A stretch of DNA of 64,000 nucleotides from Escherichia coli (GCF_030013595.1 NZ_CP122768.1); one strand, 5' to 3'; shown: positions 20,051 to 40,964, numbered from the stretch's first letter. Notes: a model not told the origin generated them from the sequence alone. Numbers and translations: made by a program.

Positions 20051-20535
20051 GAGTATTGGTATTCTCATTTCCCTTCTTTTAGAGCTGGCTTGTTAAATGC
20101 CAGCTTGCAAATTCATCGTTCCATCACCAGTACTATATTCAAGTGAAAATTGCTATTTTTCTTAAAGCATTAAGCATAAGCCTTATTTTATAGCGAATAT
20201 TCCTAAAGGCATTAATGGATGAAAAAGGGGTTTAATAAACTTCTTTTTTAGCAATTAGTGCTATTCTTTGTTAAATATGATGATGATAATCTTCTTATTG
20301 AAAGAAACAGTTTTCTTATTAAGCAACAATAACTCATGGTTCATTTTTAAATAAAATAAGAACTATGCAATTTTTAATCTATCGATTCGAAAGTATTAGC
20401 AAATTAGCCAAATTGACACCTTCCCACCTCCAACCAACACTCAATACAGACCTCTGACAACTTAATAAGTTTCATTTTTAACGTCTGATGACTCATCTCT
20501 TTCGTGGCTGTATTGTTTGTATATGGAGCGTTTAT

Positions 20536-23500: not shown

Positions 23501-25955
23501 AAGCGCTGAACATCCATGGTGGGCAAAAGCTGACGTTAGCCGAACATGGCGGAGCCTATGGCGCAACGGCCGATATGTCGGCAAAAATCGGTGGTGAAGG
23601 GGATCTGGCAATCAATACGGTACGACAGGTTTCGCTTTCCAACGGTCAGAACGACTATCAGGGGGCAACCTACGTTCAGATGGGGACATTACGTACCGAT
23701 GCGGATGGCGCGCTGGGCAACACCCGGGAACTGAACATCAGCAACGCGGCCATCGTCGATCTTAATGGATCGACCCAGACGGTAGAGACATTCACCGGGC
23801 TGATGGGTTCGACTGTTTTGTTCAAAGAAGGTTCGCTGACGGTGAATAAAGGTGGGATCAGTCAGGGCGAACTGACAGGTGGCGGAAACCTGAATGTTAC
23901 AGGGGGAACACTGGCTATCGAGGGGCTTAATGCACGCTACAATGCGTTAACCAGCATTAGCCCAAATGCGGAAGTCAGCCTCGATAATACGCAGGGGTTA
24001 GGCAGAGGAAATATTGCCAATGACGGTCTGTTAACGCTAAAAAATGTGACCGGCGAACTGCGTAATAGCATAAGCGGGAAGGGTATCGTGAGCGCAACCG
24101 CCAGGACAGACGTAGAGCTGGATGGCGATAATAGCCGCTTTGTGGGGCAATTCAACATTGATACAGGCAGCGCGCTCAGCGTCAACGAGCAGAAAAACCT
24201 GGGTGATGCTTCCGTTATCAATAATGGCCTGCTCACCATCTCCACTGAGCGTAGCTGGGCGATGACGCACAGTATCAGCGGTAGCGGTGATGTGACAAAA
24301 CTGGGTACCGGGAGCCTGACTCTTAACAACGATTCCGCGGCGTATCAGGGTACGACGGATATCGTGGGTGGTGAAATTGCTTTCGGTTCCGACTCTGCCA
24401 TTAATATGGCAAGTCAGCACATTAATATCCATAACAGCGGTGTGATGTCGGGAAATGTCACCACTGCAGGTGATGTGAACGTTATGCCTGGGGGACACTG
24501 CGTGTCGCCAAAACCACTATCGGCGGCAATCTGGAGAATGGTGGCACGGTTCAAATGAATAGCGAAGGGGGGAAACCGGGGAATGTGCTGACCGTTAACG
24601 GCAACTATACCGGAAACAATGGCCTGATGACGTTCAACGCGACGCTGGGCGGCGATAATTCGCCCACCGATAAGATGAACGTGAAAGGCGATACCCAAGG
24701 GAACACTCGCGTTCGGGTTGATAACATTGGCGGCGTCGGTGCACAAACGGTCAACGGTATTGAACTCATTGAGGTTGGCGGTAATTCTGCAGGTAACTTC
24801 GCGCTGACCACCGGAACTGTCGAAGCTGGGGCTTACGTCTACACGCTGGCTAAAGGGAAGGGGAATGACGAGAAAAACTGGTATCTGACCAGTAAATGGG
24901 ACGGCGTAACGCCAGCGGATACACCCGATCCCATCAATAATCCTCCTGTTGTGGATCCGGAAGGCCCATCAGTTTATCGCCCGGAGGCCGGAAGCTATAT
25001 CAGCAACATTGCCGCAGCCAACTCGCTGTTTAGCCATCGTTTACACGACCGTCTGGGTGAGCCGCAGTATACAGATTCACTGCATTCTCAGGGTTCGGCA
25101 AGCAGTATGTGGATGCGTCATGTCGGAGGGCACGAACGTTCAAGGGCCGGTGACGGTCAGCTAAATACTCAGGCTAACCGCTATGTATTGCAGCTAGGAG
25201 GCGATTTGGCGCAGTGGAGTAGCAACGCGCAGGATCGCTGGCATCTTGGCGTGATGGCAGGCTACGCCAATCAGCACAGTAATACTCAGAGTAATCGTGT
25301 GGGTTATAAATCGGATGGGCGCATCAGCGGTTACAGCGCAGGACTGTACGCGACCTGGTATCAGAACGATGCGAATAAGACCGGCGCTTATGTTGACAGC
25401 TGGGCGCTGTATAACTGGTTTGATAACAGCGTCAGTTCCGATAACCGTTCTGCTGTCGACTATGATTCTCGCGGTGTGACGGCCTCTGTTGAGGGTGGGT
25501 ATACCTTTGAAGCGGGAACATTTAGCGGCAGCGAAGGGACGCTGAATACCTGGTACGTCCAGCCACAGGCGCAAATCACCTGGATGGGTGTGAAAGATTC
25601 TGACCATACCCGGAAAGACGGAACACGCATTGAAACGGAAGGCGACGGAAACGTGCAAACGCGACTTGGGGTGAAAACCTACCTGAACAGTCATCACCAG
25701 CGTGACAATGGTAAACAGCGTGAGTTCCAGCCTTACATTGAAGCGAACTGGATCAACAACAGCAAAGTCTACGCCGTGAAGATGAATGGTCAAACCGTAA
25801 GCCGTGATGGTGCGCGTAGTCTCGGTGAAGTACGTACCGGGGTTGAGGCGAAAGTAAATCACAACCTTAGCCTGTGGGGGAATGTCGGTGTGCAACTAGG
25901 TGATAAAGGCTATAGCGATACTCAGGGCATGCTGGGTGTGAAATATAGCTGGTAA
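20536..25955 (+). pseudogene. yneO: AIDA-I-type autotransporter adhesin, frameshifted (about 1340-aa passenger reading frame + 466-aa C-terminal segment carrying the beta-barrel)
   Basis: Autotransporter extended signal peptide (MNRIYRVIWNCTLQVF...), repetitive Gly/Thr/Asn-rich passenger, C-terminal ...LGVKYSW barrel ending. The reading frame shifts at the G5 run 24490-24494; the continuous protein (…GGTLRVAKTTIGGNLENGGTVQMNSEGG…) needs a -1 shift. K-12 carries a pseudogene at this locus. Confidence 0.75.
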
Positions 25956-26165: not shown

Positions 26166-26432
26166 ATGATGAGCTTTCAGAAGATCTATAGCCCAACGCA
26201 ATTAGCGAATGCAATGAAACTGGTTCGTCAGCAAAATGGCTGGACGCAGAGCGAGCTGGCGAAAAAAATTGGTATTAAGCAGGCGACGATTTCCAATTTC
26301 GAAAACAACCCTGACAATACCACGCTGACGACCTTTTTTAAGATTTTACAGTCGCTTGAACTCTCAATGACGCTATGCGACGCGAAAAATGCCTCGCCAG
26401 AATCAACAGAACAGCAAGATCTGGAGTGGTAA
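26166..26432 (+). CDS. hipB: Antitoxin/repressor HipB (88 aa, XRE-type HTH)
   Basis: MMSFQKIYSPTQLANAMKLVRQQNGWTQSELAKKIGIKQATISNFENNPDN...; the ORF track starts at an upstream TTG, the true start is the ATG at 26166. Confidence 0.9.
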   Translation: MMSFQKIYSPTQLANAMKLVRQQNGWTQSELAKKIGIKQATISNFENNPDNTTLTTFFKILQSLELSMTLCDAKNASPESTEQQDLEW

Positions 26433-27242
26433 TGCCTAAACTTGTCACTTGGATGAACAACCAGCGGGTAGGCGAGTTAACGAAGTTAGCCAACGGCGCG
26501 CACACCTTTAAGTATGCACCGGAGTGGTTAGCCAGCCGTTATGCCAGACCGTTGTCACTTTCGCTGCCATTGCAGAGGGGGAATATCACCTCTGATGCCG
26601 TATTTAACTTCTTCGATAACCTGTTACCCGATAGCCCGATTGTACGTGACCGGATCGTTAAACGTTATCATGCCAAATCCAGACAACCGTTTGATTTATT
26701 GTCAGAAATAGGGCGAGACAGCGTTGGTGCCGTGACGTTAATACCCGAAGACGAAACCGTAACGCATCCGATAATGGCATGGGAAAAGCTTACTGAAGCC
26801 AGACTTGAAGAAGTATTAACGGCTTATAAAGCAGATATCCCTCTGGGCATGATTAGAGAAGAAAATGACTTTTATTCAGGCTGGCGGCAGTTATCGACTC
26901 ACGCCATTTTACGACATCATTTCAGCATTTCCGGTATTGGGTGGCGCAGGAATACACATCAGCGATCTCAAACTGGCAATGGGGCTTAACGCATCCAAAG
27001 GCAAAAAAACGGCAATCGATAAAATTTATCCGCGACATTTTCTGGCGACAGCAAAGTTGCTGAAATTTCCGGAAGTGCAGATGCATGAAATCCTGAGTGA
27101 CTTTGCCAGAATGATTCCGGCAGCACTGGATAACGTGAAGACTTCATTACCGACAGATTTTCCGGAGAACGTGGTGACGGCAGTTGAAACCAATGTGTTG
27201 AGGTTGCACCGTCGGTTAAGCCGAGAATACGGTATTAAGTAA
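26432..27242 (+). pseudogene. hipA: hipA toxin kinase gene with an internal out-of-frame deletion (about 0.5 kb missing)
   Basis: N-terminal 150 residues (MPKLVTWMNNQRVGELTK...GMIREENDF) then the frame breaks near 26870-26878; the C-terminal 125 residues (FIQAGGSYRLTPFYDIISAF...LSREYGIK) continue in a different frame. Locus is 811 bp versus about 1323 bp for intact hipA. Confidence 0.8.
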
Positions 27243-27461
27243 GATATGGGGTTTGGCCGTTGTTAATGAGCAGGACAATCATGACCGCCAACGACTGGAT
27301 TCTCCCTTGGTTTATGTTGGTGCGCATAATGTATATTATGTTAAATAGCCTACGATGGTAAACAACTTCATAAATCTCCATTGCCTTTCACGAAATCAAC
27401 AGGTTAACGATTTCTAACATCCCTCCCATTTCTTGCGTTAGGTGTAGAGTACATTTACTTC

Positions 27462-28280
27462 ATGTCCGCATCAACAATGAGGTTATCTATGTACTCGCTC
27501 AACCAACTAGTTGCCATCAACCACAAACGGCAATGGATTCTGATGGACACGGAAACCTGCTTACCGTTGTTGTACCCACTCAGATATCACATCGATCATT
27601 TGGCTTTTCGTTCATTGTCCACGCAGTCTGCTTCGCTGCAGGCCGTTAAGTTCTTTTACGAATTTTGGTTGCAGAAACACGGCGTCACGTTTTGCTATAG
27701 CTTCTATGCTTCTGGCCACAACCCGTGCATTGCTATTGAGGAAATGTCGGCATTTTCTCACTATCTGGAGAATGGTCGCGTAAGCCAATCAAATTTATTG
27801 GCATTCACTCCAGTCTCCACTTCCCATAGTTTTATCAACGCAGCGCGATTTCGTGCAGTAGCGCAGTTTATTGCTTTTTTGATTAACACGTATGTATCGC
27901 CGGTATATCGGGATGATTCTCCCAAAGCATTATCACTCCAGGCTTCCCGGTTACATACTCGCCTGCGCTTTTGTCGTGACAGTTATCGAGCGTTAACACC
28001 GGGAAAGCATTCTAACCATCGTCATATCCATCAGGGGTTTCAGAGTATGAACCGTGAAATGGTGATCAGTCTGTACACGATTATTGCTCCCTGCTCTAGC
28101 CAAAAATATAACCCATTAAATCCCTTCCCCACCAGAAACACCCAGTTTCGCAACTTTTTGATTATTCGCCTGTTACTGAATTATGGATTGCGAATAGGTG
28201 AATTATTGCTGTTGGAATGCAATTCTATAAAATCAAATATAAAAAAGGATAAGTTTAGTTTGATTGTAACTACAACTTGA
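27462..28280 (+). CDS. Tyrosine recombinase, N-terminal part (Tn554 TnpA-like / GInt integrase 1); probably disrupted
   Basis: 272-aa ORF ending shortly after a box-I-like segment (FLIIRLLLNYGLRIGELLLLECNSI); the catalytic C-terminal motifs are in the next ORF. Confidence 0.55.
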   Translation: MSASTMRLSMYSLNQLVAINHKRQWILMDTETCLPLLYPLRYHIDHLAFRSLSTQSASLQAVKFFYEFWLQKHGVTFCYSFYASGHNPCIAIEEMSAFSHYLENGRVSQSNLLAFTPVSTSHSFINAARFRAVAQFIAFLINTYVSPVYRDDSPKALSLQASRLHTRLRFCRDSYRALTPGKHSNHRHIHQGFQSMNREMVISLYTIIAPCSSQKYNPLNPFPTRNTQFRNFLIIRLLLNYGLRIGELLLLECNSIKSNIKKDKFSLIVTTT

Positions 28281-28305
28281 ATTTAGTCACTCTGCACCGT
28301 TTTAT

Positions 28306-28947
28306 GTGTCCAGGTCGATTAACCAGGTCATCCTTAGTTTCAGTCCGCCAGATTATCAGGCCGCCGTAGCGCGTGGCGAAGCGGCTCTACCAATTATTAC
28401 GCCGACCGACTTGCGCCACAACGTGGGGCACTCACTGGCTATGCAAGGGGTCAGCGCCGAGGAAATCGCGCATATTCTGGGACATACCTCCCTTACTGTT
28501 GCCAAGTATTACATTTTGGCGACACCTGCGCTGGCACTGATTCGAGCCAAAGCGTTGGGTACCAATCCGGTATGGCAAAATATGGTAGCTATGATGTTGA
28601 CTGGTGAACTGACCTCTTCAACGAAATGGCAAGGCCAGCGCGTGGTCGGCATAATCGGTGATCAGTTGCATGATGGGATTGGTGGTTGCTCCAGAGATAA
28701 TGGCGACTGCCCGTTCAGTGAAGTACGCTGCTGCTACGGCTGCCTGTATTATCGCCCCTTTACTGATGGTGACCATCAGGCTGTGCTGGAGAGTGTAGTT
28801 AAAGAAGTCGATGAATTGATCTCCATTTCAGACAGTGTTGGTAACGCCCGCAATCCACTTATTTCCATCCATGAAACCACACAATTTGAAATTCAATCCG
28901 TGATTGCCCGTTGCCGCTTTCGTCAGGAAAAAGGCGGTGTGCGATGA
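28306..28947 (+). CDS. Tyrosine recombinase, C-terminal part (catalytic box II); continuation of the previous ORF
   Basis: Contains DLRHNVGHSLAMQGVSAEEIAHILGHTSLTVAKYY (R-H...H...Y catalytic signature). Separated from the upstream ORF by about 25 nt with a stop; the R-to-HxxR spacing looks shorter than usual. Confidence 0.55.
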   Translation: MSRSINQVILSFSPPDYQAAVARGEAALPIITPTDLRHNVGHSLAMQGVSAEEIAHILGHTSLTVAKYYILATPALALIRAKALGTNPVWQNMVAMMLTGELTSSTKWQGQRVVGIIGDQLHDGIGGCSRDNGDCPFSEVRCCYGCLYYRPFTDGDHQAVLESVVKEVDELISISDSVGNARNPLISIHETTQFEIQSVIARCRFRQEKGGVR

Positions 28948-31310
28948 AAAAATATTTTGCGCAGTTTCACGCCTTTATCACCGAGCAGCAAAGCTGGTTT
29001 GAACAGCATCTGGCGACAGACTTCGAGCAGTCATGGGATGATCCTGTCTGGGTCTGCGGCAGCAATGGTAGTGGCTGGTTACGTGGTAATGGCAAAAATA
29101 AATTACGCTTTGATGAAATCAGCCGTACCAAAGGTATTGAGGGGCGCCATGCAGTGGCAGAAGACTATGCCCGGTTTATGAAAGCCCTGCTGGTACTAGT
29201 GTATCGGAGGCGAAATCGTAGCATATCCCCAGCGGTGGCTGTGGCAACGCTGATGATTTTGAAGCGCTGGTACCACTCGCTATTTGAGATGACCGGGCAA
29301 ACTCACCCAGTGTATCTAACCACCGGGGTAATTCAACGGTCAATGGATAGCCTCAGCGCAGCTTCGTCTCCAGGGGATCCCAATACCGCCAATTACAAAG
29401 GACGCTGTGTCAGTCTGCAAAAAATGGTTAATCACCAGTCATTCACGCTGGTGACACTGCAATATGTGTCTGATGCACAATATACCAATCAAACCAACCT
29501 GACCCGCAAAGCCCGGGAAACCATGGCTCTGAAACAGCAGGACAAGCTGACAGATACCACTACCGATGGTGAAGAGGCGTTGATTACCATTCGCGGTTTT
29601 CTGAACATCGTCGAATTAATCCAGCGGGTGGAAAGTGATGCTGAGAAAATTGCGTTAAATTGCCTGTTGTTATTGGTTATCACCGGCTTTCGCTCCATTG
29701 AAGCGTTTAATCTCAGACAGGATGCGCTGTTTAAACGCCAGATTGATGATCCGGCAATCCGCAAGCGGTTTCAGGACAAGGGATTACCCGATTATTTCCT
29801 TGGTATCCGTTATATTGGTGTCAAAGGTGCTGGGGAGCGAACGCATTGGGTAGAACCGCTGGCTGTACCGCTGGTCGAGAGTATATTCAGTTCCGTTAAA
29901 ATATTGACCGCACCAAAACGCAGTCATCTGACCTATCTACGGGAGAAATCTTTTACTGATTACCTGCCACAGGCCATCAGCGCCCTACCCGGTGAACAAG
30001 TTGAACTGGATGATGTGGTGACGTACATCACACAAACCGCCTCAAGTTTTCGTGGCCGGGCAGGACAACGAGACAAAACATCCAAAGCCCTCAACAAACG
30101 AGGTGTGCTGCCCGTTCTAGAAATGCCAGGGCCGAAAAACAGCAAATCTATCTATTATTCCAAGACTGACCTTAATCATTACATCAAGACCGAATTTGGC
30201 CTGACGGATGCCAACGAACCCTGTACGCACGCCTGGATGGAAAATGGCAAACGTTACGAAGTTAACTACGAAGACCTGTTATTTCTACATGAGAAGGGTT
30301 CGCTGGCATTAAAGCGCACACTGGCTTTGCTGGCTATACCGATACCATTCACTAACACACTTATGAATAAATTTTTAGGCAATGTTGAGCCTGATGGATC
30401 AGTATTCAGCAAATATCAATTACTGGAAGAGAATGGTACCCCCACCCGGATGCGTACCCACATTCCCCGGCACAACATCAATACCTTTCTTGCTATTGCG
30501 GATATCTCTGACCACTTACAGGCAATGTTGATGGGGCGAGTGGACATCACGCAGAATCAGCACTATCAACATCTGGCGCTTGCAGAACGGCGAAAAGCAG
30601 CCTCGTTGGTGCCCTTGCAGCCGATATCGACAGCACTAACTGCCGCGCCCTCTTCGTCCTCCATTGCTACGCCACTGGAAATCGTCAAACGGACCGGCCA
30701 ACTGGCGGTCACGAAACACATGACTTTGGACAATACCATCAAAGCCAACCTGCATACTTTTGACGATCGGGATGATGTAGCCAGGTTTGTCGAGGCGTCA
30801 TTTGCTGACGGCCTCTTTGAAGATGTTGCTGCCGCCTTTGAAGAAATCCGCGACGCAGAAGGACCAGAGCAAGCCTCTGCCATGGTGGCAAGACATGCCG
30901 TGATGTATCCGCTGAAATTTGGCTCCTGTATGCGGGAAGTTAACCTCTGGGGATGTCCTTATCGACTGAAATGCCAGAGTGCTGCCTTTTGTGAACATTT
31001 CACGCTGACAGGCCGGATAGATGAGCTACCCAATCTGATTGCCAAAAAACAGGCGTTACAGCAAGCACATTCGAAGTTGACCCAACTTACACAACATCAG
31101 CCTGACTACCAGACCAGACTGGCCGACATCGAACGACGGTTACAGCAACTCGAGGCAATACAAGCACAATGGCAGCGTCGTGCCAAGACTCAACAACTGG
31201 TTGCTGCGGAGAGTGTGTTGTCTGGTGGAGTAATCACCGAGGGCAAAGTCCGTACACTGGCCCAGCTTTTTGCACTTGAATACCAACAATTGATGCAGGA
31301 GAACGACTGA
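28944..31310 (+). CDS. Large tyrosine recombinase (Tn554 TnpB-like / GInt integrase 2), about 788 aa
   Basis: Box I-like LLLLVITGFRSIEAFNLRQD and box II-like THIPRHNINTFLAIADISDHLQAMLMGRVDITQNQHYQHL; ATG at 28944 overlaps the upstream stop (ATGA), suggesting translational coupling. Confidence 0.65.
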   Translation: MKKYFAQFHAFITEQQSWFEQHLATDFEQSWDDPVWVCGSNGSGWLRGNGKNKLRFDEISRTKGIEGRHAVAEDYARFMKALLVLVYRRRNRSISPAVAVATLMILKRWYHSLFEMTGQTHPVYLTTGVIQRSMDSLSAASSPGDPNTANYKGRCVSLQKMVNHQSFTLVTLQYVSDAQYTNQTNLTRKARETMALKQQDKLTDTTTDGEEALITIRGFLNIVELIQRVESDAEKIALNCLLLLVITGFRSIEAFNLRQDALFKRQIDDPAIRKRFQDKGLPDYFLGIRYIGVKGAGERTHWVEPLAVPLVESIFSSVKILTAPKRSHLTYLREKSFTDYLPQAISALPGEQVELDDVVTYITQTASSFRGRAGQRDKTSKALNKRGVLPVLEMPGPKNSKSIYYSKTDLNHYIKTEFGLTDANEPCTHAWMENGKRYEVNYEDLLFLHEKGSLALKRTLALLAIPIPFTNTLMNKFLGNVEPDGSVFSKYQLLEENGTPTRMRTHIPRHNINTFLAIADISDHLQAMLMGRVDITQNQHYQHLALAERRKAASLVPLQPISTALTAAPSSSSIATPLEIVKRTGQLAVTKHMTLDNTIKANLHTFDDRDDVARFVEASFADGLFEDVAAAFEEIRDAEGPEQASAMVARHAVMYPLKFGSCMREVNLWGCPYRLKCQSAAFCEHFTLTGRIDELPNLIAKKQALQQAHSKLTQLTQHQPDYQTRLADIERRLQQLEAIQAQWQRRAKTQQLVAAESVLSGGVITEGKVRTLAQLFALEYQQLMQEND

Positions 31311-31744
31311 TGCGCGGCAAGGAACTGGACACACTGATCGAGCACGAATTACAACTGATGCTGGTTGAAGGCTTTGACAAGTCCCCTATTTCCGCCAAGG
31401 CCCTGCATATTCGGCTCAAGGCAAAAGGTATCGTTAACGGTGGTTTAAGTACGCTGAGCAGCCTTGAGCGAAAACGCCTAATTGCTGCCTATGTTGATCA
31501 GCAACTTGGCCCATTGAATCTACGCCCAAAAGAAAAACAGCAATACGTCAACCGCAAAACCCGTCAGGCCTTGCTGGCCAGAAACCAGCAGTTGCAGGCG
31601 GAAGTCAGTGAGCTGCGAGACCAACTGGCGCAGAATACCCTGTCGTTGATAGAAATTGTCAAAGCGGTAAAAATCAATACAGTTATTCCGGTGGAAAGTC
31701 TGTTGGCTAAACATGTAATTCGGGAGTTACACAAGTCGTTATAA
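31310..31744 (+). CDS. Small coiled-coil protein (Tn554 TnpC-like / GInt accessory protein)
   Basis: 144-aa ORF whose ATG overlaps the upstream stop (TGATG); predicted coiled-coil (QQLQAEVSELRDQLAQNTLSL). Third gene of a recombinase-recombinase-small protein module. Confidence 0.5.
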   Translation: MRGKELDTLIEHELQLMLVEGFDKSPISAKALHIRLKAKGIVNGGLSTLSSLERKRLIAAYVDQQLGPLNLRPKEKQQYVNRKTRQALLARNQQLQAEVSELRDQLAQNTLSLIEIVKAVKINTVIPVESLLAKHVIRELHKSL

Positions 31745-31908
31745 TGCTGACATAGGAATATTTCGCCGACAGTTTCCCGGTTGTCGGCGAAATGCTGATT
31801 GTAATTTTTCGGCAAAGGGCATGGACGATTTCTTTTCGTTATTCTGCATATTGCTTACCTTCCCAAATTTCTCCAACCGTTAGTTGGAGAAATTAGATGG
31901 GTCGTAAA

Positions 31909-32103
31909 TCATGAATAAACGCCTTGATCTATTCGAAAAATGAGAATTGCAACTTTCAACGCCCCCTCTTCTGAGTCCATTATCTCAGAGGACGCTTTCC
32001 ACTGTAATGCTCTGTTTGGTTCATTGCACCAGTTTAATGCTGCACTTTCGTTACCTTCAAAAAGATCAATAGCCTTTTGTATAACATCATTTTTTGTCAG
32101 CAT
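31909..32103 (-). CDS. DUF2384-like (Xre/MbcA/ParS antitoxin toxin-binding domain) fragment, likely the frameshifted C-terminus of the upstream XRE protein
   Basis: ...AALNWCNEPNRALQWKASSEIMDSEEGALKVAILIFRIDQGVYS resembles the DUF2384 C-terminal signature; overlaps the XRE ORF by 17 nt across an A6 tract (T6 at 32090-32095 on the + strand). Confidence 0.45.
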   Translation of the reverse strand: MLTKNDVIQKAIDLFEGNESAALNWCNEPNRALQWKASSEIMDSEEGALKVAILIFRIDQGVYS

Positions 32104-32419
32104 GTTTTACACCTGAAGACGTTTTGAGTGCTTCGATAAGGCTACTTCGCTCTTCCTCTGTCATCCGAGATATGAGTAATGCAAGTTCTGCTGTTGTCTG
32201 ATCATCACAAAAAAGGTAGTTCAACGGCACGTTTAACTCTGCTGCCATCCGTCGAAGCGTATCAATATCGGGGACATGGCGTCCTTTCTCATAATGATTC
32301 ATACGACTGCTAGCCGATGCAGGATCAAAGCCAACAAGGAGACCCAGAGAGCGCTGTGATAAACCAGCCCTGCATCTCGCTTCCTTAAGTCGTTCTGGTA
32401 TCGGATTTTTTTCAGACAC
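32087..32419 (-). CDS. XRE-family HTH DNA-binding protein (110 aa)
   Basis: HTH signature LKEARCRAGLSQRSLGLLVGFDPASASSRMNHYEKGRHVPDIDTLRRMAAELNV. Confidence 0.7.
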   Translation of the reverse strand: MSEKNPIPERLKEARCRAGLSQRSLGLLVGFDPASASSRMNHYEKGRHVPDIDTLRRMAAELNVPLNYLFCDDQTTAELALLISRMTEEERSSLIEALKTSSGVKHADKK

Positions 32420-32503
32420 TGATTCATCTTCATTGGCCTCGAATGCTTAGATTGTCTAAGTATCTGCCATTGTTGTATACTTAGCAATCCTAAGTTAATA
32501 GCC

Positions 32504-33076
32504 TTGTTTTGTCATATGAATAGCCGAGTAACCAACCCTGAGTCGTACATATTTTCTGCAATCATCTTAATTGGCAAAGATAACTTCACCAGTAACGAAG
32601 TAGCAAAAATTCTTATCGAGCGATTTTCACTTCCGAAAAATTATTTAAAGGCAAAAGCTTTTGCTTATAACCAAATTCAATCCCTGGTTAGAAAAGGATT
32701 ATTAAACAAAGTAAGAAAAACAGGCGTGTATCAATATTTATACTCAGTCACAGCAGAATTCAATGTCGCAATAGAGTGCGTGAAATTAATTGAGGCAACC
32801 CCAAAGTCTTCCTGTCAACTTGTTTCAAGTGCTACCAACCATGAACACAGAAATGTAAATATCCAAATAAAGTCTCTTATTGAAAAATACAGCAGTGAAT
32901 TGGCGAAAGTATCAGGAGCAAAGGAGATTTATGAGGAATTGATAGTTGCTGTGCCGAGCAGGGAAAATGAATTCAGGAAGCTTTCTCTTGAACAAGAGAA
33001 AAAACACATCAAGATAAATGAAAAAATAAATACATTAATTGGAATTATTAATCAATCTCTTGCAGTAAGGCAATGA
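32504..33076 (+). CDS. Hypothetical protein (190 aa), AT-rich, divergent from the XRE gene
   Basis: Open frame only; lysine-rich with a possible N-terminal winged-helix-like segment and C-terminal coiled coil. No family recognised. Confidence 0.5.
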   Translation: MFCHMNSRVTNPESYIFSAIILIGKDNFTSNEVAKILIERFSLPKNYLKAKAFAYNQIQSLVRKGLLNKVRKTGVYQYLYSVTAEFNVAIECVKLIEATPKSSCQLVSSATNHEHRNVNIQIKSLIEKYSSELAKVSGAKEIYEELIVAVPSRENEFRKLSLEQEKKHIKINEKINTLIGIINQSLAVRQ

Positions 33077-33891
33077 ATTTTAGCAAGTATTTGAAGCTAA
33101 ATGGAGTCATGAAAAAGAGAGGGCAAAGCCGAACTCCGCCCTCTCCCGTCAAGCACTGATATATCTCATTAAAATGAGATTAACAGCGCGCACTCCTATA
33201 TGCTAGTCGTATATAAATATAATGTCAGCCAGTCCCGGATGCAACTCTTTAATGAAGTTCAGTACTCTCTTTTTTTAGTTATCGAAATGATAGTTGGTAC
33301 AAGGGAACACACGAAGAGGAAAATTGCGATGACTTTGACGCAGAGCATGTTGAGTCTATTATTGCGACCCTCGAAGCTCTGGATGCGTTAGATTTACGCC
33401 ACGGAAGATGGACTGTAAGTATCCCTCCAATAGTGCGACTCACTTACCCAGATTGTAAGTTCAAACGGTCGAAGGCACTAGATTCTGATAAGAATTTGAG
33501 GCGCATGAGTACAGGCATTCGATTGTCAGCTTCTGGGTAGTTGTGGGAATTCTGCTCAAAGTGCCGCTGGCCAAAACATATTGGGCGCTGGTCTGTGGCG
33601 GCAAAATGGTGTCACGTAAAAGATACAGATGTTCCAGTCTATTTTTGCCCAATAACGTGCCCCGGGTTCAGTTTTTTTGCTCGGGACTAAAACGCTTATC
33701 CAGATCAGCCGCCAGCTGTTCAATACTCTTCGTTGAGCCTTTATAAATATACCAATCAAACTGTTAAAAACTCGTTCAAATTCGACCAAATATTATTACT
33801 GGCTGATATTAGTTCGGTTAGGCAAAGCGCAACAAACAACTAAGAAGTGCGCCTCAAAAAATTAATTGTAAGGCGCCCCCCTAAAACACAT

Positions 33892-36219
33892 TTATTCTGT
33901 TATATTTCTTGGCAACATAGAAAAAGATGCTTGAGACAATCCTGCGCGCTTGAATTTATACCGTATATATGTTGACACTTCCATCTCATGGTTTGACAAC
34001 AAAATCTGACGATCTGAAAGCTCTACCCGTAACAAATCACTCAATGAAGCAATGTTAATCTCATCCATTGACTGTACTGGATCATCAATCAGTATAAATG
34101 GATTAAGCGCATATACCCTATTCAATGTTAGGAAAAATGCCAAACCTAATGATGCGATTTGCCCACTACTCATAGACAGGATTGCATCATGATCAGACTT
34201 CAGCGCAGTATTGAATTTGAGTATATCTCCTTTACCGCTCACTATAAACAAACCTAACCCACGCTGATAATTCTGTATGAGTCTTCCACTATATATATGG
34301 AATAACAGCTCTATATCACCAATAGTCTTTTTCGCATACTGTTTCGCAGTGTCGTCCAATTGCCGCCTAAGATTAACAATTTTTGCTTTTATTTTTTTGC
34401 CAGCTTCAATCCTAGAACTGAGCTTATCAAGCTCCGCTACTTTGGACTTGTACTCTTCGCTTTTGAATTTAGAATGAGCGGCTCTGAGATAGGATTCTTT
34501 ATTTTCAAAATCTGAAACACTAAGTGAGGTTATATCTGATGCGTTCAAGAAAGCCATCTCTAAGCTAGATGACCAGTCTAAAGGGAGCACATCCTTTTCT
34601 GGTTTTTTAGCTGTAGCAATAATCCCTTTTGCTTCATTAAACCGTAACAGCAGAGCTGCATCATCAGCCGTAAAACTAAGATCTTTTGATACGCCATAAT
34701 TTACCAACTGCAAAGCCACTTCACTTATGATTGAGAACTTAGATTCTGCTGCTGTGAGAGCCTTAAAAAGCACACTATCGAAATCTTTTGCAACTAGGTC
34801 ACGCTGCTGTGTGAATGCTGTTATCTGTAAATTTAGTAAGTCCTGTATTGACCTTACTGTCTCCTCCAACTTCTGGGCAGAAGCATCTATTTCAGATCGA
34901 ATTCTTTCCGCATTATTTACAGCGGCTTCCTCTAACGCAGCGTAAGTCGCCCATGATAACCCACAGAATGGACAACCGGAAATTTCCAAATCTTCACATT
35001 CTTGGTGTCGCCGCAGCAACTCTGCATGAGCATTTAGTAAATTTACAAGCTTTGCGTTCTTAGCTGCACTATCAGATTTAATTAGATCCCGTGCCTCAAT
35101 GAGACTATTTACACCAACCAAATCAGCAGCGTTCTTAAGACCGTTTAGGTCTACTTCATTTATCTCTGAAGCTGGCTTTCTGAATATCAAAAGATCATGA
35201 TCCAGCCCAACTAGCGTTGACTCCTTTACTTTCAGACCTTCATATCCAGCTACTTCAGAACCCAACTGAAGAGCCAACTTTATATCGACCTCTCTTTTTA
35301 AAAACGCATCAATATTACTATTAGCCTTTCTCGTCAGAACTTCATCAAAGTTCTGATATATTCTAAATATATTCCGTAATTCACGTATCAGAGTTTCAAT
35401 ATCTGTATCATTTACAGCCGATAGAGGCTGTTCAACATCCCAACCAGGTGACGGCGTCGCGGTACTTAACCGCTTGAAGTCAACGGAATTCTCGGCATCT
35501 TGAAACTGACCACTAAGCTGTTTAATTTTTTCATTCAACTCAGCCTGGAGGTCAGTATGCACTTTCCCCGTATAAGATTCCGTAATAATACTTTCTAACT
35601 CGGAGCAATATGATATCTGTCTCGTCAATTTATCGGTATTAATAAGATGCTCAATGCCTTTTTTTCTTTCAGTGGCATCCGTCGAGTACAGGTATCTATT
35701 CTGCCCTTGCTCAAGATAGTTCAATAAAGAGAAATTTTTTAAGAAGTTCTCTCCTAGAATACTCTCTAGTGCTTTAGAATCAAGACTCTCTCCAAACTTA
35801 TCGGAGTCTATACTGCTTATTTCGTAAAGCTTAAAAATAGAGAAGTTATCAGGTGCATTATTATCCGGGTTCGATAAATCCGCTATGGTAGCAACACGAG
35901 CTAGGAAAATTGACTCTCCTGAATCTTGATTTATGAGCTCAGCTCTAATAGCGATGTCGCCCTCTTTATTTCTATTCCAGTATATGTTTTCTTCAAATTG
36001 TTTTTTGCGCGAACGTTTTGCAACTGTTGCATCATTTGTATTGATAATTCTTTGTATAACGCCAGTAAACAAAAGCTCCAACGCATCAAATATGCTAGTT
36101 TTTCCAAAACCATTGGGGCCATCCAAGGTAATCATGGAGGCAGATCGAAAATCAATAGATGTATTTTCAAATGGCTTGAAATTTTCAATCTTGAGGCTGG
36201 ATATTTTCCATTTCTTCAT
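33892..36219 (-). CDS. Rad50/SbcC/SMC-like ABC ATPase with coiled-coil insert and CxxC zinc-hook-like motif (LmuB-like), 775 aa
   Basis: N-terminal Walker A (IENFKPFENTSIDF...LDGPNGFGKTSIFDALELLF), central CPFCG motif in a predicted coiled coil, C-terminal signature/Walker B/H-loop (SSGQIASLG...FILIDDPVQSMD...LLSNHE). Confidence 0.65.
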   Translation of the reverse strand: MKKWKISSLKIENFKPFENTSIDFRSASMITLDGPNGFGKTSIFDALELLFTGVIQRIINTNDATVAKRSRKKQFEENIYWNRNKEGDIAIRAELINQDSGESIFLARVATIADLSNPDNNAPDNFSIFKLYEISSIDSDKFGESLDSKALESILGENFLKNFSLLNYLEQGQNRYLYSTDATERKKGIEHLINTDKLTRQISYCSELESIITESYTGKVHTDLQAELNEKIKQLSGQFQDAENSVDFKRLSTATPSPGWDVEQPLSAVNDTDIETLIRELRNIFRIYQNFDEVLTRKANSNIDAFLKREVDIKLALQLGSEVAGYEGLKVKESTLVGLDHDLLIFRKPASEINEVDLNGLKNAADLVGVNSLIEARDLIKSDSAAKNAKLVNLLNAHAELLRRHQECEDLEISGCPFCGLSWATYAALEEAAVNNAERIRSEIDASAQKLEETVRSIQDLLNLQITAFTQQRDLVAKDFDSVLFKALTAAESKFSIISEVALQLVNYGVSKDLSFTADDAALLLRFNEAKGIIATAKKPEKDVLPLDWSSSLEMAFLNASDITSLSVSDFENKESYLRAAHSKFKSEEYKSKVAELDKLSSRIEAGKKIKAKIVNLRRQLDDTAKQYAKKTIGDIELLFHIYSGRLIQNYQRGLGLFIVSGKGDILKFNTALKSDHDAILSMSSGQIASLGLAFFLTLNRVYALNPFILIDDPVQSMDEINIASLSDLLRVELSDRQILLSNHEMEVSTYIRYKFKRAGLSQASFSMLPRNITE

Positions 36220-36940
36220 GAATCAGAGTCTCGATTAGTTTGTCTGCTTCAATCCCAGATGCAGAAGCATTAAAGATTTTGAGATGAAGACCGGTCAATT
36301 TTTTCTCGGCGAGTGCTTCCTTTACATAAATATCAAGCGGCTTTAGTGAGCTTTCCTTAACAGGAACCTTTACAAATGGAAGCTTTATAAAAATTCTCGC
36401 CGCGACGCTATATAATGTAGGCGATAGTGGTTGATCTCGATATTCTGCAAACATCCTATCATCGACAACAATCGCTGAAACGCTTTCGAAGTTGTGCCCT
36501 TCTAACAACCTAAGCTCTTCCTCGCTGTAATAAAGAAAATATTTTTTAAAATAATATGGATTCTCTTCAATTCCAAACACCTTACTCTCAATTCCATTAA
36601 AATCAACTCGGTGCCTTAATTTATGCAAAATAATCAGATCGGTATTTTTATCGAAAGCAGGATCAGATTTGAATGTTTCAGGAGCATACAGTAACACTAA
36701 TTTATTCAGCACCTGCGGTGATGGTATATTTTCACACTCAACCACAGCGAGGAATCGCTTCCTATCTCCACTATCCTGACTAAAATAAGTCAAAGACTTA
36801 TAATCAACACCTTCAAGACCAGCTAAAGTTTCTCCTGCCGAATACTCTATGGTGACGTCATCTGCTTTAGAATAGTCGCCTGTATTAAACAAAGTAAACT
36901 CATGTTTCAAGGCAGCCTGTAGAACAATATCTTTAATCAT
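36185..36940 (-). CDS. Middle gene of the three-gene operon (251 aa), unknown function, possibly LmuC-like
   Basis: Start overlaps the upstream stop by 8 nt and its 3' end overlaps the downstream ATPase start, indicating translational coupling. No recognisable motif. Confidence 0.5.
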   Translation of the reverse strand: MIKDIVLQAALKHEFTLFNTGDYSKADDVTIEYSAGETLAGLEGVDYKSLTYFSQDSGDRKRFLAVVECENIPSPQVLNKLVLLYAPETFKSDPAFDKNTDLIILHKLRHRVDFNGIESKVFGIEENPYYFKKYFLYYSEEELRLLEGHNFESVSAIVVDDRMFAEYRDQPLSPTLYSVAARIFIKLPFVKVPVKESSLKPLDIYVKEALAEKKLTGLHLKIFNASASGIEADKLIETLIHEEMENIQPQD

Positions 36941-38195
36941 TCAACTTCACCCTCGCCTCTTCCTTTGAAATTATTTTTGCATCAAAGGCTTTAGTTATTT
37001 TGTTACGATCCTTACCCATCAATGAAAACTCATCTTCTACAGCATCCCGCGAAGCTCCGGTAGCTGCACAAAATCGCTCAGCGGGTGAAAAAATATTTGC
37101 TCTAGCTGCGATTAGCCATTGATATTCAACTAAGATATCTATCAGCTCTGGATCGCTTTTCAGCTGCTCTATTAGATCTTCAGCAAACCTATGCTCCCGT
37201 CGAGCATTGTCTGCCGAAATTGCTGTTGGCAAATAAAAATCTCCGGCAGAGCACCTATAGTAAGGAGGCTTTTGCTCACTCAGTGGCGCTTTATCTATAT
37301 CGTAGATCACATCCACATAATCATAAACACTGTTCTCACTCACGACCATTGTGGAAGATCCAAAACATAACGACTTCCACAACCATATAAATGGAGTATC
37401 ACCCAACTCTTTAATCTGATCGTAAACATTTGCAACTTTTTGAATAACAGTTCTATCTGCTGTTTTTTCCATTGTATTGGTATACCCATACAATGATTTA
37501 CAAACGGCCATCCTGGCTTGGAACATTTTGTATACAATGTCGTCTTCATGGGTAGCGGTGAGGCTTAATAACTCTACAATCTTCTCACTTTTTAAAGTTT
37601 GAGTAAACGCGGCTTGTGCGGCGCTCATTAACCCATCCTGATTGCACGCGTGTATATATATTACTTGAGCGGCAATATGACTCTGCAAAGCCTCGAACTT
37701 CAAATTCACTAAAAAATCACTGCAAGGTAACTCTTCGGAAACCAGGTACTTCTCAATTTTTGATTTCGTTTTTTCTTCAACATCTTGGAGATAGCAGTAA
37801 GGCAGTCCATCGTAAGTATAAAATTTAACGACATTCCCATTGCTGCCAACAAAATCAGAAGCATCATCAAGGCGCGCAGATGTATGAAAATATCTTTTGG
37901 TAGTCTTATCACACAACATATATGTAGATGCAGCTTTTTCGAGAGCCTCCCTATAGGCAGCTCTTTTATCATCTGCTAGCGCTTTTACCTGATGCGTAGA
38001 AACTGCAACTCCATTTTCAATTATCGAAAAATCATCAATGCTGTCGATTTGCAACTCAAACGACATTTTATTGAGCACACATTCTATGGAATGATAAAGC
38101 GCTAAATGCCCTTGATAAATAAACCCACTCCATGTAGGTGCAGCTGTATGAGGATGGGAGGAAGCCGATTTCGACATGCAATATGTCCTAGGCAA
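36933..38195 (-). CDS. Candidate effector of a three-gene defense operon: PD-(D/E)xK nuclease-like protein (possibly Cap4/DUF4297-like, LmuA-like), 420 aa
   Basis: N-terminal region WSGFIYQGHLALYHSIECV...QIDSIDDFSIIENGVAVSTHQVK has the E..D..E/QxK spacing of restriction-endonuclease-fold proteins; first gene of an overlapping operon; AT-rich. Confidence 0.5.
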   Translation of the reverse strand: MPRTYCMSKSASSHPHTAAPTWSGFIYQGHLALYHSIECVLNKMSFELQIDSIDDFSIIENGVAVSTHQVKALADDKRAAYREALEKAASTYMLCDKTTKRYFHTSARLDDASDFVGSNGNVVKFYTYDGLPYCYLQDVEEKTKSKIEKYLVSEELPCSDFLVNLKFEALQSHIAAQVIYIHACNQDGLMSAAQAAFTQTLKSEKIVELLSLTATHEDDIVYKMFQARMAVCKSLYGYTNTMEKTADRTVIQKVANVYDQIKELGDTPFIWLWKSLCFGSSTMVVSENSVYDYVDVIYDIDKAPLSEQKPPYYRCSAGDFYLPTAISADNARREHRFAEDLIEQLKSDPELIDILVEYQWLIAARANIFSPAERFCAATGASRDAVEDEFSLMGKDRNKITKAFDAKIISKEEARVKLND

Positions 38196-38524
38196 ATTTA
38201 GAGACAGAGTCAGAAGTAACCTTCTAACTCAGTAGAATATGATCTTAATTTCTGTATCCGATGTTTATATTTTTTGTTGAACGCGCCCAGCGGCGTTATG
38301 AAAACTTCCTTGATTGTCATTTTTATGCATTCTCTTGATCGATAGGAATTTAAATCCCAAAAAGATTAAAAAAACACCCAAAAACGGATGTTTATTCGAC
38401 ACTGCCTGCGTGCCATGAGTGCACCGCCATCAATTAAATGGATCTTATCGAGTGATACTGTATATCACTGATGGTTTTTTACTCCATTCCCCTGAAAATG
38501 GACGCAACTTCCCCGATGCGGCTC

Positions 38525-40077: not shown

Positions 40078-40964
40078 ATAACTACCTGAAAGACAATGAT
40101 ATTGTCTGTTTTTATAACGGTAATTTCAGGCCATGACAAGCCGCAGCCGCCAAGCTGCCTACTCGAGCGATATCGCTATGATATCACCGAATGTAACATA
40201 CCTGTAGGGTCAAAAAAAGGGTCAGCCAAACATTCTGGAGTGTTCGGTATCGTTGGTACCATTCATGCAAAATGGACTTAAATCTTAAGAAAGACACTCC
40301 ATTAGCTTAAGCTTCCCTACCTTACCCTACCAATACACCTAGCCAGCCGTGAGAACGCTACCGCCATCAGAGGCATTAGTCCCGATTAAGTATCGATGCA
40401 ACCAAATGTTACCAAAATTCATGAATTGTTCAAGAAGGCAATCAGATAATCCCTAAAGCTTTATGGGCCTGGTTATGCGATTACATTGGGAAATGGTTCA
40501 TGAACAGAAGTAGAGCAAGCTGCCAAGAAATGCTCATAAGAGGCGAATTTCCTGTTAGTTCATGAAGCCACCTGGAAGTGAATTCATCTTTCTATTAAAA
40601 ATATTCATTTAAAGCAAAGAGATATGTCATCTGTGGTTTATGAACTGGATTCTCGCTCAACATAAGTTAAATGTGGTGGGTTTGTTCTTAAGTTCATGTG
40701 TTCCGCTCTTTCAGTAGCTTAACTGATGAATCAGTCAGCAGCTCTTGCCGTGCAAGCTACGCGGCGGTTCGTACCAGATTGGCCACCTCCATCTCCTGGT
40801 TCGCTTTCCCCTCCCCCCGGTAAACCTCACCCAACGTTAATTAATGATGTCAGTATGTGGGCGCTATCCTTGTATGTAAAATCCACTGACGATTATGCCC
40901 ATCTGTGAAAAAAACTCACAATGCCATTCGATGCATCTCCATACTGAACGAGGCGTTATCGTCT

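What the first reader, a model, noticed from the sequence alone, without database searches (positions are those of the whole stretch)
27462..31744. Tn554/GInt-like integration module: tandem tyrosine recombinases plus small protein, with the first recombinase split
Three co-oriented genes with overlapping stop/start codons (ATGA at 28944-28947, TGATG at 31308-31312): a recombinase of about 485 aa if rejoined (now two ORFs), a very large 788-aa recombinase with box I R and box II H-x-x-R...Y motifs, and a 144-aa coiled-coil protein. This is the TnpA-TnpB-TnpC architecture of Tn554-family transposons and tandem-integrase genomic islands. The first recombinase is interrupted between box I and box II, so the element may be immobilised.
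Basis: partly seen in the sequence, partly recalled or inferred. Interest (0 to 1): 0.7.

Follow-up and report, generated by a model that had tools for sequence, protein, structure and literature searches.

The report
Crippled GInt island inserted beside dif
This is the recombination module of a known type of mobile island (a GInt, normally four genes) that has lost half of two of its recombinase genes in one 1,473-bp deletion, and the island sits exactly at the edge of dif, the site where E. coli resolves chromosome dimers, which I did not find reported for GInts.

Summary
The first two ORFs are not one split recombinase. Near-identical intact copies (Raoultella plasmid p3045-1, Escherichia whittamii chromosome; 99.7-99.9%) carry four genes: ginA (463 aa), ginB (517 aa), ginC (788 aa), ginD (144 aa), the ginABCD operon of GInts. 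The window lacks 1,473 bp, joining GinA residues 1-263 to an out-of-frame GinB 296-517. Neither remnant keeps a full active site. ginC and ginD are intact. Comparison with an empty site bounds the island at 27347-40672 (13.3 kb). Its cargo is a Lamassu-like defence system plus an IS91 insertion. By analogy with the Pseudomonas GInt, where all four genes are essential, it probably cannot move itself.

Two results go beyond the finding. First, attB is the canonical dif site (27319-27346): the crossover core GTTAAAT is the last 7 nt of the XerD arm and dif stays intact. About 37 of 46 related loci across Gammaproteobacteria, and plasmid copies, show the same arrangement. I found no paper linking GInts to dif. 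Second, GinC has a tyrosine-recombinase fold and a near-invariant R-K-H-R-R-Y set, contrary to published statements.

Verdict: a degenerate member of a known family with an apparently undescribed target.

The parts
27319..27346 (+). Chromosomal dif site (GGTGCGCATAA-TGTATA-TTATGTTAAAT), which serves as attB and is kept intact on the attL side
   Evidence: Exact 28-nt match to the experimentally defined E. coli dif as quoted in PMC3025954. Present in the empty-site genomes L003 and L004. Occurs once in the window, with 0 expected by chance.
27340..27346 (+). attL crossover core GTTAAAT, the last 7 nt of the XerD-binding arm
   Evidence: The window matches empty site L004 up to 27347 and resumes at 40663, so the shared sequence is confined to GTTAAAT.
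27347..27488 (+). Non-coding left end of the GInt. It contains TTCATAAA (27367-27374) 20 nt after the core (21 nt after it in core-to-motif start-to-start terms used in the report).
   Evidence: 99.7% identical to the plasmid copy L005. A TTCAT motif at the same distance from dif is conserved in about 25 loci from Enterobacterales to Acinetobacter, Moraxella and Vibrio.
27489..28280 (+). ginA', the truncated first recombinase. It keeps residues 1-263 of 463 and ends at a TGA created by the deletion junction. The longest ORF starts at 27462.
   Evidence: Identical to L005 GinA residues 1-263, then stop. It keeps box-I R235 but lacks K277, H361, R364, W413 and Y423, which are conserved in 50 or more loci. 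Pfam PF00589 hit only at E = 0.19, against 1.3e-6 for the intact protein.
28277..28278 (.). Junction of the 1,473-bp deletion, with 1-bp microhomology
   Evidence: Removing L005 6862-8334 reproduces the window with 0 mismatches over 328 nt. The same junction is present in the two complete genomes H1 and H2.
28279..28947 (+). 'ginB, the remnant of the second recombinase. It keeps residues 296-517 of 517 and has no native start. The listed ORF starts at an internal GTG at 28306.
   Evidence: 0 differences from L005 GinB 296-517. It keeps R341, H342, H364, Y373 and the four cysteines, but lacks R224 and K258. Annotated as a pseudogene in RefSeq.
28944..31310 (+). ginC, intact, 788 aa. A tyrosine-recombinase-fold protein with a large insertion and a C-terminal four-cysteine motif plus helices.
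31310..31744 (+). ginD, intact, 144 aa. A small helical protein.
   Evidence: Identical to the plasmid and H1 protein WP_077884466.1. AlphaFold2 pLDDT 85.2, with an N-terminal helical bundle and a long helix at 85-123. A homologue follows ginC in 60 loci.
31745..38344 (.). Cargo: a truncated Xre/ParS-type antitoxin ORF (31909-32103, -), an HTH regulator (32087-32419, -), a 190-aa ORF (32504-33076, +), and a Lamassu-like / ABC-three-component defence operon: LmuB-like 33892-36219, LmuC-like 36185-36940, LmuA-like 36933-38195 (all -).
   Evidence: PADLOC: LmuB 7e-69, LmuC 3e-14, LmuA 8e-21, control protein 3e-25. RefSeq names. The same cargo is present on plasmid L005.
38345..40161 (-). IS91-family insertion inside the cargo. 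It is absent from H1, L005 and L013.
   Evidence: NCBIfam transpos_IS91 at 1.7e-85. The alignment gap is seen against L001, L005 and L013. Boundaries are good to within a few bases.
40162..40665 (+). Non-coding right end of the GInt. It contains TTTATGAA (40637-40644), the inverted copy of the left-end motif, 21 nt before the core.
   Evidence: 99.8% identical to L005 up to 40672. Sequences read directly.
40666..40672 (+). attR crossover core GTTAAAT. It is preceded only by a degenerate XerD-arm-like ATAAGTTAAAT, with no XerC arm and no matching central region.
40673..40738 (+). Fossil left end of a different GInt type. It is also present in 'empty' E. coli sites.
   Evidence: Window 40663-40738 is 87-89% identical to the sequence that follows dif, ahead of the gin operons of E. 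cloacae (L049) and an E. hormaechei plasmid (L011).

Best explanation
[quoted passage not shown] The island carries a Lamassu-type anti-phage system.

How the intact element most likely works. GinA and GinB are catalytic tyrosine recombinases. GinC is a third recombinase-fold protein that retains an active-site-like residue set. GinD is a small helical accessory protein. Together they recombine the element's attachment site with a 7-bp core, GTTAAAT, which is the outer end of the XerD-binding arm of a Xer site. That site is chromosomal dif, or a dif-like site on a plasmid. The island therefore lands immediately beside dif and leaves all 28 bp of it intact.

What happened in this window. One 1,473-bp deletion removed GinA residues 264-463 and GinB residues 1-295. 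GinA' keeps only its box-I arginine. The GinB remnant has no start codon, no box-I arginine and no lysine. The island therefore probably cannot excise or integrate by itself. Its ends, ginC and ginD are intact, so an incoming intact relative might mobilise it in trans.

Shown here: the gene anatomy, the deletion, the element ends, the adjacency to dif and its recurrence in relatives, the GinC fold and the residue conservation.

Inferred: that the Gin proteins rather than XerCD carry out the exchange, that all four genes are needed (by analogy with the Pseudomonas stutzeri GInt), and that GinC is catalytically active.
For: Architecture. Intact four-gene operons lie at the same site in E. coli. 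A copy 99.7-99.9% identical is present on R. planticola plasmid p3045-1 and in the E. whittamii chromosome.

Deletion. It is exactly 1,473 bp, with 0 mismatches in the flanks.

Domains. Intact GinA and GinB match PF00589 at 1.3e-6 and 2.2e-10. The conserved catalytic residues were mapped across 50 or more loci.

GinC. Its fold matches Tn1549 Int, IntI4, XerH and Cre, and R250-K294-H506-R509-R532-Y541 is near-invariant.

Ends. Comparison with the empty site gives imperfect direct repeats ATTATGTTAAATA and ACATAAGTTAAATG. This matches the 10-17-nt imperfect repeats described for GInts.

dif. The window has an exact 28-mer. A dif-like site lies on the same strand just upstream of ginA in about 37 of 46 loci from many genera, scoring 23-27.5 against 17-20 for the minus-strand control. 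Plasmid copies sit at Xer-like sites with different central regions. An empty plasmid site was found.

Gene requirement. All four gin genes are essential in P. stutzeri (PMC5385486).

Cargo. Lamassu-like proteins. hipA-ydeT is listed as defence hotspot #20, and GInts are known defence carriers in E. coli.
Against: Direct sequence homology to the reference Pseudomonas GInt proteins was not shown. The only link is a distant similarity to a P. aeruginosa plasmid gin-like operon (23% identity, E = 7e-16). An accession look-up in the supplements of Idola 2023 found nothing.

Pfam does not recognise GinC. The profile-profile alignment of GinC to GinB is weak (E = 0.05).

No experiment shows that this enterobacterial clade moves, that movement is independent of Xer, or that a ginAB deletion abolishes mobility here.

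About 9 of the 46 loci show no clear dif site within the fetched flank.
Confidence: 0.85

Rival explanations
1. A Tn554-type three-gene module (TnpA-TnpB-TnpC) whose first recombinase was split into two ORFs by a point lesion between box I and box II.
For: Co-oriented, overlapping genes, with a box-I-like motif in ORF1 and a box-II-like motif in ORF2. GinD is reported to resemble TnpC weakly (PMC5385486).
Against: ORF1 aligns only to GinA 1-244/263. ORF2 aligns only to GinB 296/305-517. Blastp between ORF1 and GinB, and between ORF2 and GinA, is not significant. Intact relatives have two separate genes of 446-463 and 517-521 aa, plus 1,473 bp that are missing here. No Tn554-specific family was hit in NCBIfam.
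Confidence: 0.03
2. The island is an IMEX. It integrates at dif through the host XerC/XerD recombinases, as CTX-phi, TLC-phi and the gonococcal island do, and the gin genes are accessory or irrelevant to integration.
For: It lies exactly at dif or at plasmid Xer sites, always on the XerD-arm side. attR carries a 9/11 XerD-arm-like sequence. Stacked remnants beside dif resemble IMEX arrays.
Against: The sequence shared by attL, attR and attB is confined to the last 7 nt of the XerD arm, outside the 6-bp central region where XerCD exchange strands. attR has no XerC arm and no matching central region. Plasmid targets have four different central regions but the same XerD arm. The element encodes two or three conserved recombinases of its own. 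In the Pseudomonas GInt the gin genes are all required.
Confidence: 0.08
3. The deletion is an assembly or sequencing artefact, and the operon is really intact in the organism.
For: None specific. The deletion falls inside a region with paralogous recombinase genes.
Against: The same junction is found at 100% identity in two complete genomes, NZ_CM149870 and NZ_CM149862. The window comes from a different genome state: it has a hipA deletion and an IS91 insertion, and it keeps lsrB/F sequence that H1 lacks. ginA and ginB share no significant similarity that could collapse an assembly.
Confidence: 0.02

Closest known systems
[quoted passage not shown] 2017, also called the Tn6571 family)
   Same: A four-gene operon sits at the 5' end: two Pfam-recognisable tyrosine recombinases, a third recombinase-fold protein usually annotated as hypothetical, and a small helical protein. 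Cargo starts right after ginD. The right end is short and poorly conserved. Insertion is site-specific and flanked by imperfect direct repeats of about 13 nt. The cargo is a defence system, as reported for E. coli GInts.
   Different: The target is the outer edge of dif or Xer sites. It is not the ABC-transporter, ssb or ribonucleotide-reductase genes reported for other GInts. GinC here has an invariant box-I arginine and a complete R-K-H-R-x-Y set, whereas the literature says the first Arg (Bardaji) or the whole RHRY motif (Idola) is missing. This copy has lost ginA 3' and ginB 5'. Homology to the Pseudomonas reference proteins is only distant.
IMEXs (integrative mobile elements exploiting Xer: CTX-phi, VGJ-phi, TLC-phi, gonococcal genetic island, EludIMEX-1)
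   Same: It integrates at dif, regenerates a functional dif on one side, leaves a degenerate dif-like half-site on the other, and successive elements can accumulate next to dif.
   Different: IMEXs encode no recombinase and recombine within the dif central region through XerC or XerD. This element encodes its own recombinases, and its crossover maps to the last 7 nt of the XerD arm.
Tn554 family (tnpA, tnpB, tnpC)
   Same: An ordinary recombinase and a large tyrosine recombinase plus a small helical protein, co-transcribed at one end. Insertion is site-specific without classical terminal repeats.
   Different: Tn554 has three genes, not four, and no GinC-type protein. Its hosts are Firmicutes. 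No sequence-family match was found here.
[quoted passage not shown] 2023)
   Same: Four core genes, including a recombinase-fold protein that is not recognised as an integrase and a small coiled-coil protein. The hosts are Gammaproteobacteria.
   Different: The gene order differs: in SEs the odd recombinase-fold protein is second, here it is third. Idola et al. found that GinC/GinD and Tfp/Srap form separate clusters.

Membership tests
GInt | ginABCD operon at the 5' end: three consecutive recombinase-type genes plus a small fourth gene, co-oriented and overlapping | tested here: met
   Met in the 99.7-99.9% identical intact copies (L005, L013) and in the other E. coli elements at this site. 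In the window itself ginA and ginB are truncated remnants.
GInt | GinA and GinB carry the tyrosine-recombinase catalytic domain with the R..H-x-x-R..Y residues | tested here: met
   PF00589 at 1.3e-6 and 2.2e-10. The conserved sets are R235-K277-H361-R364-W413-Y423 in GinA and R224-K258-R341-H342-H364-Y373 in GinB. The first His of H-x-x-R is Thr in this GinB.
GInt | GinC is a recombinase-fold protein that is poorly recognised by sequence models | tested here: met
GInt | GinD is a small protein with a C-terminal helical or coiled-coil region | tested here: met
   AlphaFold2 pLDDT 85 with a long helix at 85-123. A homologue follows ginC in 60 loci. No structural match in the PDB.
GInt | Site-specific insertion flanked by imperfect direct repeats of 10-17 nt, with cargo between ginD and a short 3' end | tested here: met
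   attL ATTATGTTAAATA, attR ACATAAGTTAAATG, and empty sites in L004 and H91.
GInt | Sequence homology to the reference GinABCD of Pseudomonas (Pst DSM 4166, Pph 1448A) | tested here: inconclusive
   The reference sequences are not in the collections available. There is only a distant hit to a P. aeruginosa plasmid gin-like operon (23% identity over 59% of the query, E = 7e-16), which keeps the same GinC residues. Idola 2023 reports ginC-ginD blocks in 7.5% of Escherichia replicons, but these accessions were not found in its supplements.
GInt | Excision as a circle and integration both require all four gin genes | not testable with these tools
   Experimental, shown for the P. stutzeri GInt only.
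Tn554 family | A three-gene transposition module, tnpA-tnpB-tnpC | tested here: not met
   Intact relatives have four genes, including the 788-aa GinC.
Tn554 family | Sequence homology to Tn554 TnpA, TnpB and TnpC | not tested
   No Tn554 sequences were available. No Tn554-specific NCBIfam hit. Idola 2023 Fig. 1b tabulates blastp identities and 'no hit' pairs among the SE, GInt and Tn554 proteins, but the figure is not held and its values were not seen. Bardaji 2017 reports low but significant GinD-TnpC identity, data not shown.
IMEX | Integrated at dif, with dif regenerated | tested here: met
   An exact dif 28-mer at 27319-27346 abuts the element.
IMEX | No self-encoded recombinase; strand exchange by XerC/XerD at the dif central region, using a dif-like attP | tested here: not met
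   The element encodes GinA, GinB and GinC. The crossover is confined to GTTAAAT at the outer end of the XerD arm. attR lacks a XerC arm and any central-region match.
SE (strand-biased circularizing integrative element) | Gene order intA-tfp-intB-srap | tested here: not met
   The order here is integrase, integrase, recombinase-fold protein, small protein. NCBIfam gives only weak hits to gamma-mobile-trio GmtY (E = 0.002-0.06).

The most novel reading that the evidence does not exclude
This enterobacterial/gammaproteobacterial GInt clade is a previously undescribed class of dif-targeting island. It differs from IMEXs in bringing its own three-recombinase machinery. That machinery includes a GinC that is an active-site-complete, probably catalytic third recombinase, not a dead DNA-binding subunit. 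The element recombines at the outer 7 bp of the XerD arm. It therefore stacks islands, often defence systems, beside every Xer site, both chromosomal dif and plasmid multimer-resolution sites, without disturbing dimer resolution. The dif-proximal hipA-ydeT 'hotspot #20' of E. coli would then be explained as a graveyard of such insertions.
Probability: 0.5. Interest if true: 0.7.

Novelty: new variant of a known kind. Interest (0 to 1): 0.5.

Why it matters
The window's copy by itself is an ordinary, decayed member of a described family, and it corrects the reading 'split recombinase' to 'two recombinases fused by a deletion'.

The context is more useful. If GInts of this clade specifically recognise the XerD arm of dif, three things follow. 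It would explain why the region next to dif is a defence-island hotspot in E. coli. It would show how the same island hops between chromosomes and the Xer sites of large resistance plasmids in Klebsiella and Raoultella. And it would provide a natural, self-contained system that inserts at a site present once in nearly every bacterial chromosome.

The near-invariant R-K-H-R-R-Y set in GinC also makes a published assumption, that GinC is catalytically dead, directly testable.

Tried and rejected
(1) I first suspected that the 27-nt sequence shared by the chromosomal and plasmid left flanks was the terminal repeat of ISKpn21, because more than 1,000 plasmids match that flank. I rejected this. There is no inverted copy at the other IS end, and the sequence is the canonical dif or a dif-like Xer site.

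(2) A sequence-profile search of the GinC family against PDB chains found nothing, even at E = 10. phmmer with GinA found nothing. GinB gave only a sub-threshold XerA hit.

(3) Pfam on all 33 GinC sequences never gave a significant PF00589 hit. hhalign of GinC against GinB was weak (E = 0.05), although it pairs R250 with R224.

(4) The fold search with the GinD model gave no meaningful match. PADLOC and NCBIfam gave nothing for GinC or GinD.

(5) Look-ups of the E. coli GinC and GinD accessions in the Idola 2023 supplements, and of dif or Xer in the Bardaji 2017 supplements, were negative. Six literature searches found no paper linking GInts to dif.

(6) I tested whether ginC is decaying after immobilisation. 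The 8 lineage-specific substitutions are clustered in the last 500 nt and resemble the L002-type allele. That pattern looks like a recombination patch rather than relaxed selection, so no conclusion was drawn.

(7) A chimeric GinA-GinB protein made by frameshifting was considered and rejected. Neither part would supply the conserved lysine (GinA K277 and GinB K258 are both deleted).

Full report
**Observation.** The window is E. coli chromosome in the lsr / ECSE_1600 autotransporter / hipBA / ydeQ-ydeP region. The overlaps are ATGA at 28944-28947 and TGATG at 31308-31312.

**What the first two ORFs are.** Related E. coli genomes carry four genes at the same place, downstream of hipA: integrases of 446 and 521 aa, a 788-aa 'hypothetical protein' and a 144-aa protein (L002).
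- ORF1 residues 28-271 align to residues 1-244 of the first integrase (72% identity).
- ORF2 aligns to residues 305-513 of the second integrase (81%).
- The cross-comparisons are not significant.

A far closer relative is on Raoultella planticola plasmid p3045-1 (L005). It is 99.7-99.8% identical over the whole element and has intact ginA (463 aa) and ginB (517 aa). Escherichia whittamii carries the same intact element in its chromosome (L013).

Deleting L005 6862-8334 (1,473 bp, with 1 bp of microhomology) reproduces the window with zero mismatches. The window therefore keeps GinA residues 1-263, followed by a TGA created at the junction, and GinB residues 296-517 in another frame with no start codon. 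The two complete pig-isolate genomes H1 and H2 share the same junction. This is a real, inherited lesion, and it is not a split of one gene.

**Catalytic content.** Intact GinA and GinB each match the Pfam phage-integrase domain, at 1.3e-6 and 2.2e-10. Conservation across 50 or more loci gives two residue sets:
- GinA: R235, K277, H361-x-x-R364, W413, Y423.
- GinB: R224, K258, R341-H342, H364, Y373, plus four invariant cysteines.

The window's GinA' keeps only R235. The GinB remnant lacks R224 and K258. Neither remnant, nor a hypothetical frameshifted chimera, has a complete active site.

In the family alignment, which reaches down to 21% identity, these positions are invariant: R250 (in TGFR), E253, K294 (in the turn of a predicted beta-hairpin), H506, R509, H510, R532, Y541 and four cysteines. 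Across 186 homologues of at least 450 aa, including a P. aeruginosa plasmid gin-like protein, 174-179 keep each catalytic-type residue.

The spacings R509 to R532 (23 residues) and R509 to Y541 (32 residues) equal those of XerD R247, H270 and Y279. That comparison rests on my own knowledge of XerD.

This conflicts with published statements that GinC lacks the first arginine (Bardaji 2017) or the whole RHRY motif (Idola 2023). An insertion of about 200 residues between K294 and H506 probably hid the motif. Whether GinC is catalytically active remains an inference.

**GinD.** It is identical to the plasmid copy. The AlphaFold2 model has pLDDT 85, with an N-terminal helical bundle and a 39-residue helix. 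It has no structural or family match. A homologue follows ginC in 60 loci.

**Family.** The arrangement is:
- integrase, integrase, recombinase-fold protein, small helical protein;
- cargo starting right after the fourth gene;
- a short non-coding right end;
- imperfect direct repeats at the borders.

This is the definition of GInts (Bardaji 2017). GInts are already known as defence-system carriers in E. coli (Hochhauser 2023) and are reported in 7.5% of Escherichia replicons (Idola 2023). hipA-ydeT is hotspot #20 in Hochhauser's table, occupied in 62 of 783 genomes. It is not the three-gene Tn554 layout, and it is not the SE order intA-tfp-intB-srap.

**Ends and cargo.** Strain MS20675 (L004) has the empty site. 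The window matches it up to 27347 and again from 40663. The borders read as follows:
- attL: ...ATTATGTTAAATA|GCCTACG
- attR: ...ACATAAGTTAAATG|TGGTGGG
- attB: ...ATTATGTTAAATATGGTGGG

The island is therefore 27347-40672. Its cargo is a truncated Xre-type antitoxin ORF, an HTH regulator, and a Lamassu-like LmuA/LmuC/LmuB (ABC-three-component) system. A 1.8-kb IS91-family insertion at about 38345-40161 is absent from H1, L005 and L013.

**The target is dif.** Window 27319-27346 is GGTGCGCATAATGTATATTATGTTAAAT, the experimentally defined E. coli dif. The element begins immediately after it. The only sequence shared by attL, attR and attB is GTTAAAT, the last 7 nt of the XerD arm. dif itself is untouched.

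The plasmid copy sits after aGTGCGCATAA-TGTACG-TTATGTTAAAT (L005), and an unoccupied version of that plasmid site exists (H91). Other diverged gin operons on plasmids follow Xer-like sites with the same XerD arm but different central regions: TCAGCA, TGCTAT, CAAAGA, and GAAATT in P. aeruginosa.

A scan of one genome per species returned 57 loci encoding GinC relatives. The genera include Pectobacterium, Citrobacter, Klebsiella, Enterobacter, Providencia, Acinetobacter, Psychrobacter, Moraxella, Aeromonas, Shewanella, Vibrio, Photobacterium and Marinobacter. Of 46 loci with enough upstream DNA, about 37 have a dif-like 28-mer on the same strand. Its XerD arm matches at 10/11 or better and its central region is usually TGTATA. 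In about 25 of these loci it lies about 3.0-3.2 kb upstream of ginC, which is just before ginA; in most of the others it lies up to about 5.7 kb upstream. Scores are 23-27.5, against 17-20 on the opposite strand.

The sequence after dif carries a conserved TTCAT motif at a fixed distance. In the window its inverted copy lies at the mirror position in the right end.

The 76 nt after attR, which are also present in 'empty' E. coli sites, are 87-89% identical to the left end of a different GInt type. L002 holds a remnant of the window-type ginC-ginD behind another complete GInt. Together these suggest that islands pile up beside dif.

**Mechanism and rivals.** Three observations argue that the Gin proteins, not XerCD, carry out the exchange. 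The crossover lies outside the dif central region. attR has no XerC arm. Targets with different central regions are used. A helper role for XerD bound to its arm cannot be excluded.

Immobilisation is inferred from the requirement for all four genes in the P. stutzeri GInt. The ends, ginC and ginD are intact, so mobilisation in trans is conceivable.

**Novelty.** The element is a degenerate member of a known family at a known hotspot. Six full-text searches found no paper that links GInts to dif; a whole-word search for 'dif' together with 'GInts' returned zero papers. The library excludes many subscription-journal papers, so prior description cannot be ruled out.

Noticed in passing
window 27319-27346, and L002/L005/L007/L008/L009/L011/L006 plus 46 loci: The GInt abuts the canonical dif site. 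Relatives across Gammaproteobacteria and on plasmids sit at the XerD-arm edge of dif or dif-like sites, always in the same orientation.
   Followed up: yes
window ~26871/26872 (hipA, 26432-27242): hipA carries a 512-bp internal deletion relative to L001-L004, which shifts the frame. hipB (26166-26432) looks intact. H1, which shares the gin deletion, has an intact hipA.
   Followed up: partly
window 20488-25955: The ECSE_1600-family autotransporter is split into two ORFs (20488-24558 and 24555-25955), so it is probably frameshifted. K-12 also has it as a pseudogene, and H1 has it intact.
   Followed up: no
window ~38345-40161: An IS91-family element (410-aa transposase at 38525-39757, minus strand, plus a 121-aa ORF) is inserted next to a CTTG in the GInt cargo. 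It is absent from H1, the plasmid copy and E. whittamii.
   Followed up: partly
window 40663-40738: A 76-nt fossil of the left end of a different GInt type lies directly after attR. It is 87-89% identical to the dif-proximal sequence of E. cloacae L049 and plasmid L011. It is also present in 'empty' E. coli sites, which suggests repeated insertion and decay beside dif.
   Followed up: partly
L002 29321-30046: A second, partial ginC'-ginD plus antitoxin, 95% identical to window 31080-31806, lies downstream of a complete but different GInt. This looks like a tandem array with a decayed older element.
   Followed up: partly
GinB C432/C439/C447/C450 (window 'ginB, 28279-28947) and GinC C662/C671/C677/C683 (within 28944-31310): Both GinB and GinC carry an invariant four-cysteine motif after the catalytic domain. 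It may be a zinc-binding module shared by the two large Gin proteins.
   Followed up: partly
window 30784-31283 (ginC nt 1841-2340): Eight substitutions shared with H1, but not with L005 or L013, cluster in the last 500 nt of ginC. They give 5 amino-acid changes and resemble the L002-type allele. This is probably a recombination patch.
   Followed up: partly
window 32118-33539: This 1.4-kb stretch of cargo (HTH regulator and the 190-aa ORF region) is absent from the otherwise 99.7-99.9% identical E. whittamii element.
   Followed up: no
window 31909-32103 (minus strand): A 64-aa Xre/ParS-type antitoxin ORF matches only the C-terminal half of its family model, and no RES-type toxin gene lies next to it. 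It is probably a remnant.
   Followed up: no
L005 ~5600-5900, and H91-H114: The plasmid Xer-like site used by the GInt lies directly next to the end of ISKpn21 in more than 1,000 Klebsiella/Enterobacter plasmids. ISKpn21 may itself favour this site, or the two may be inherited together.
   Followed up: no
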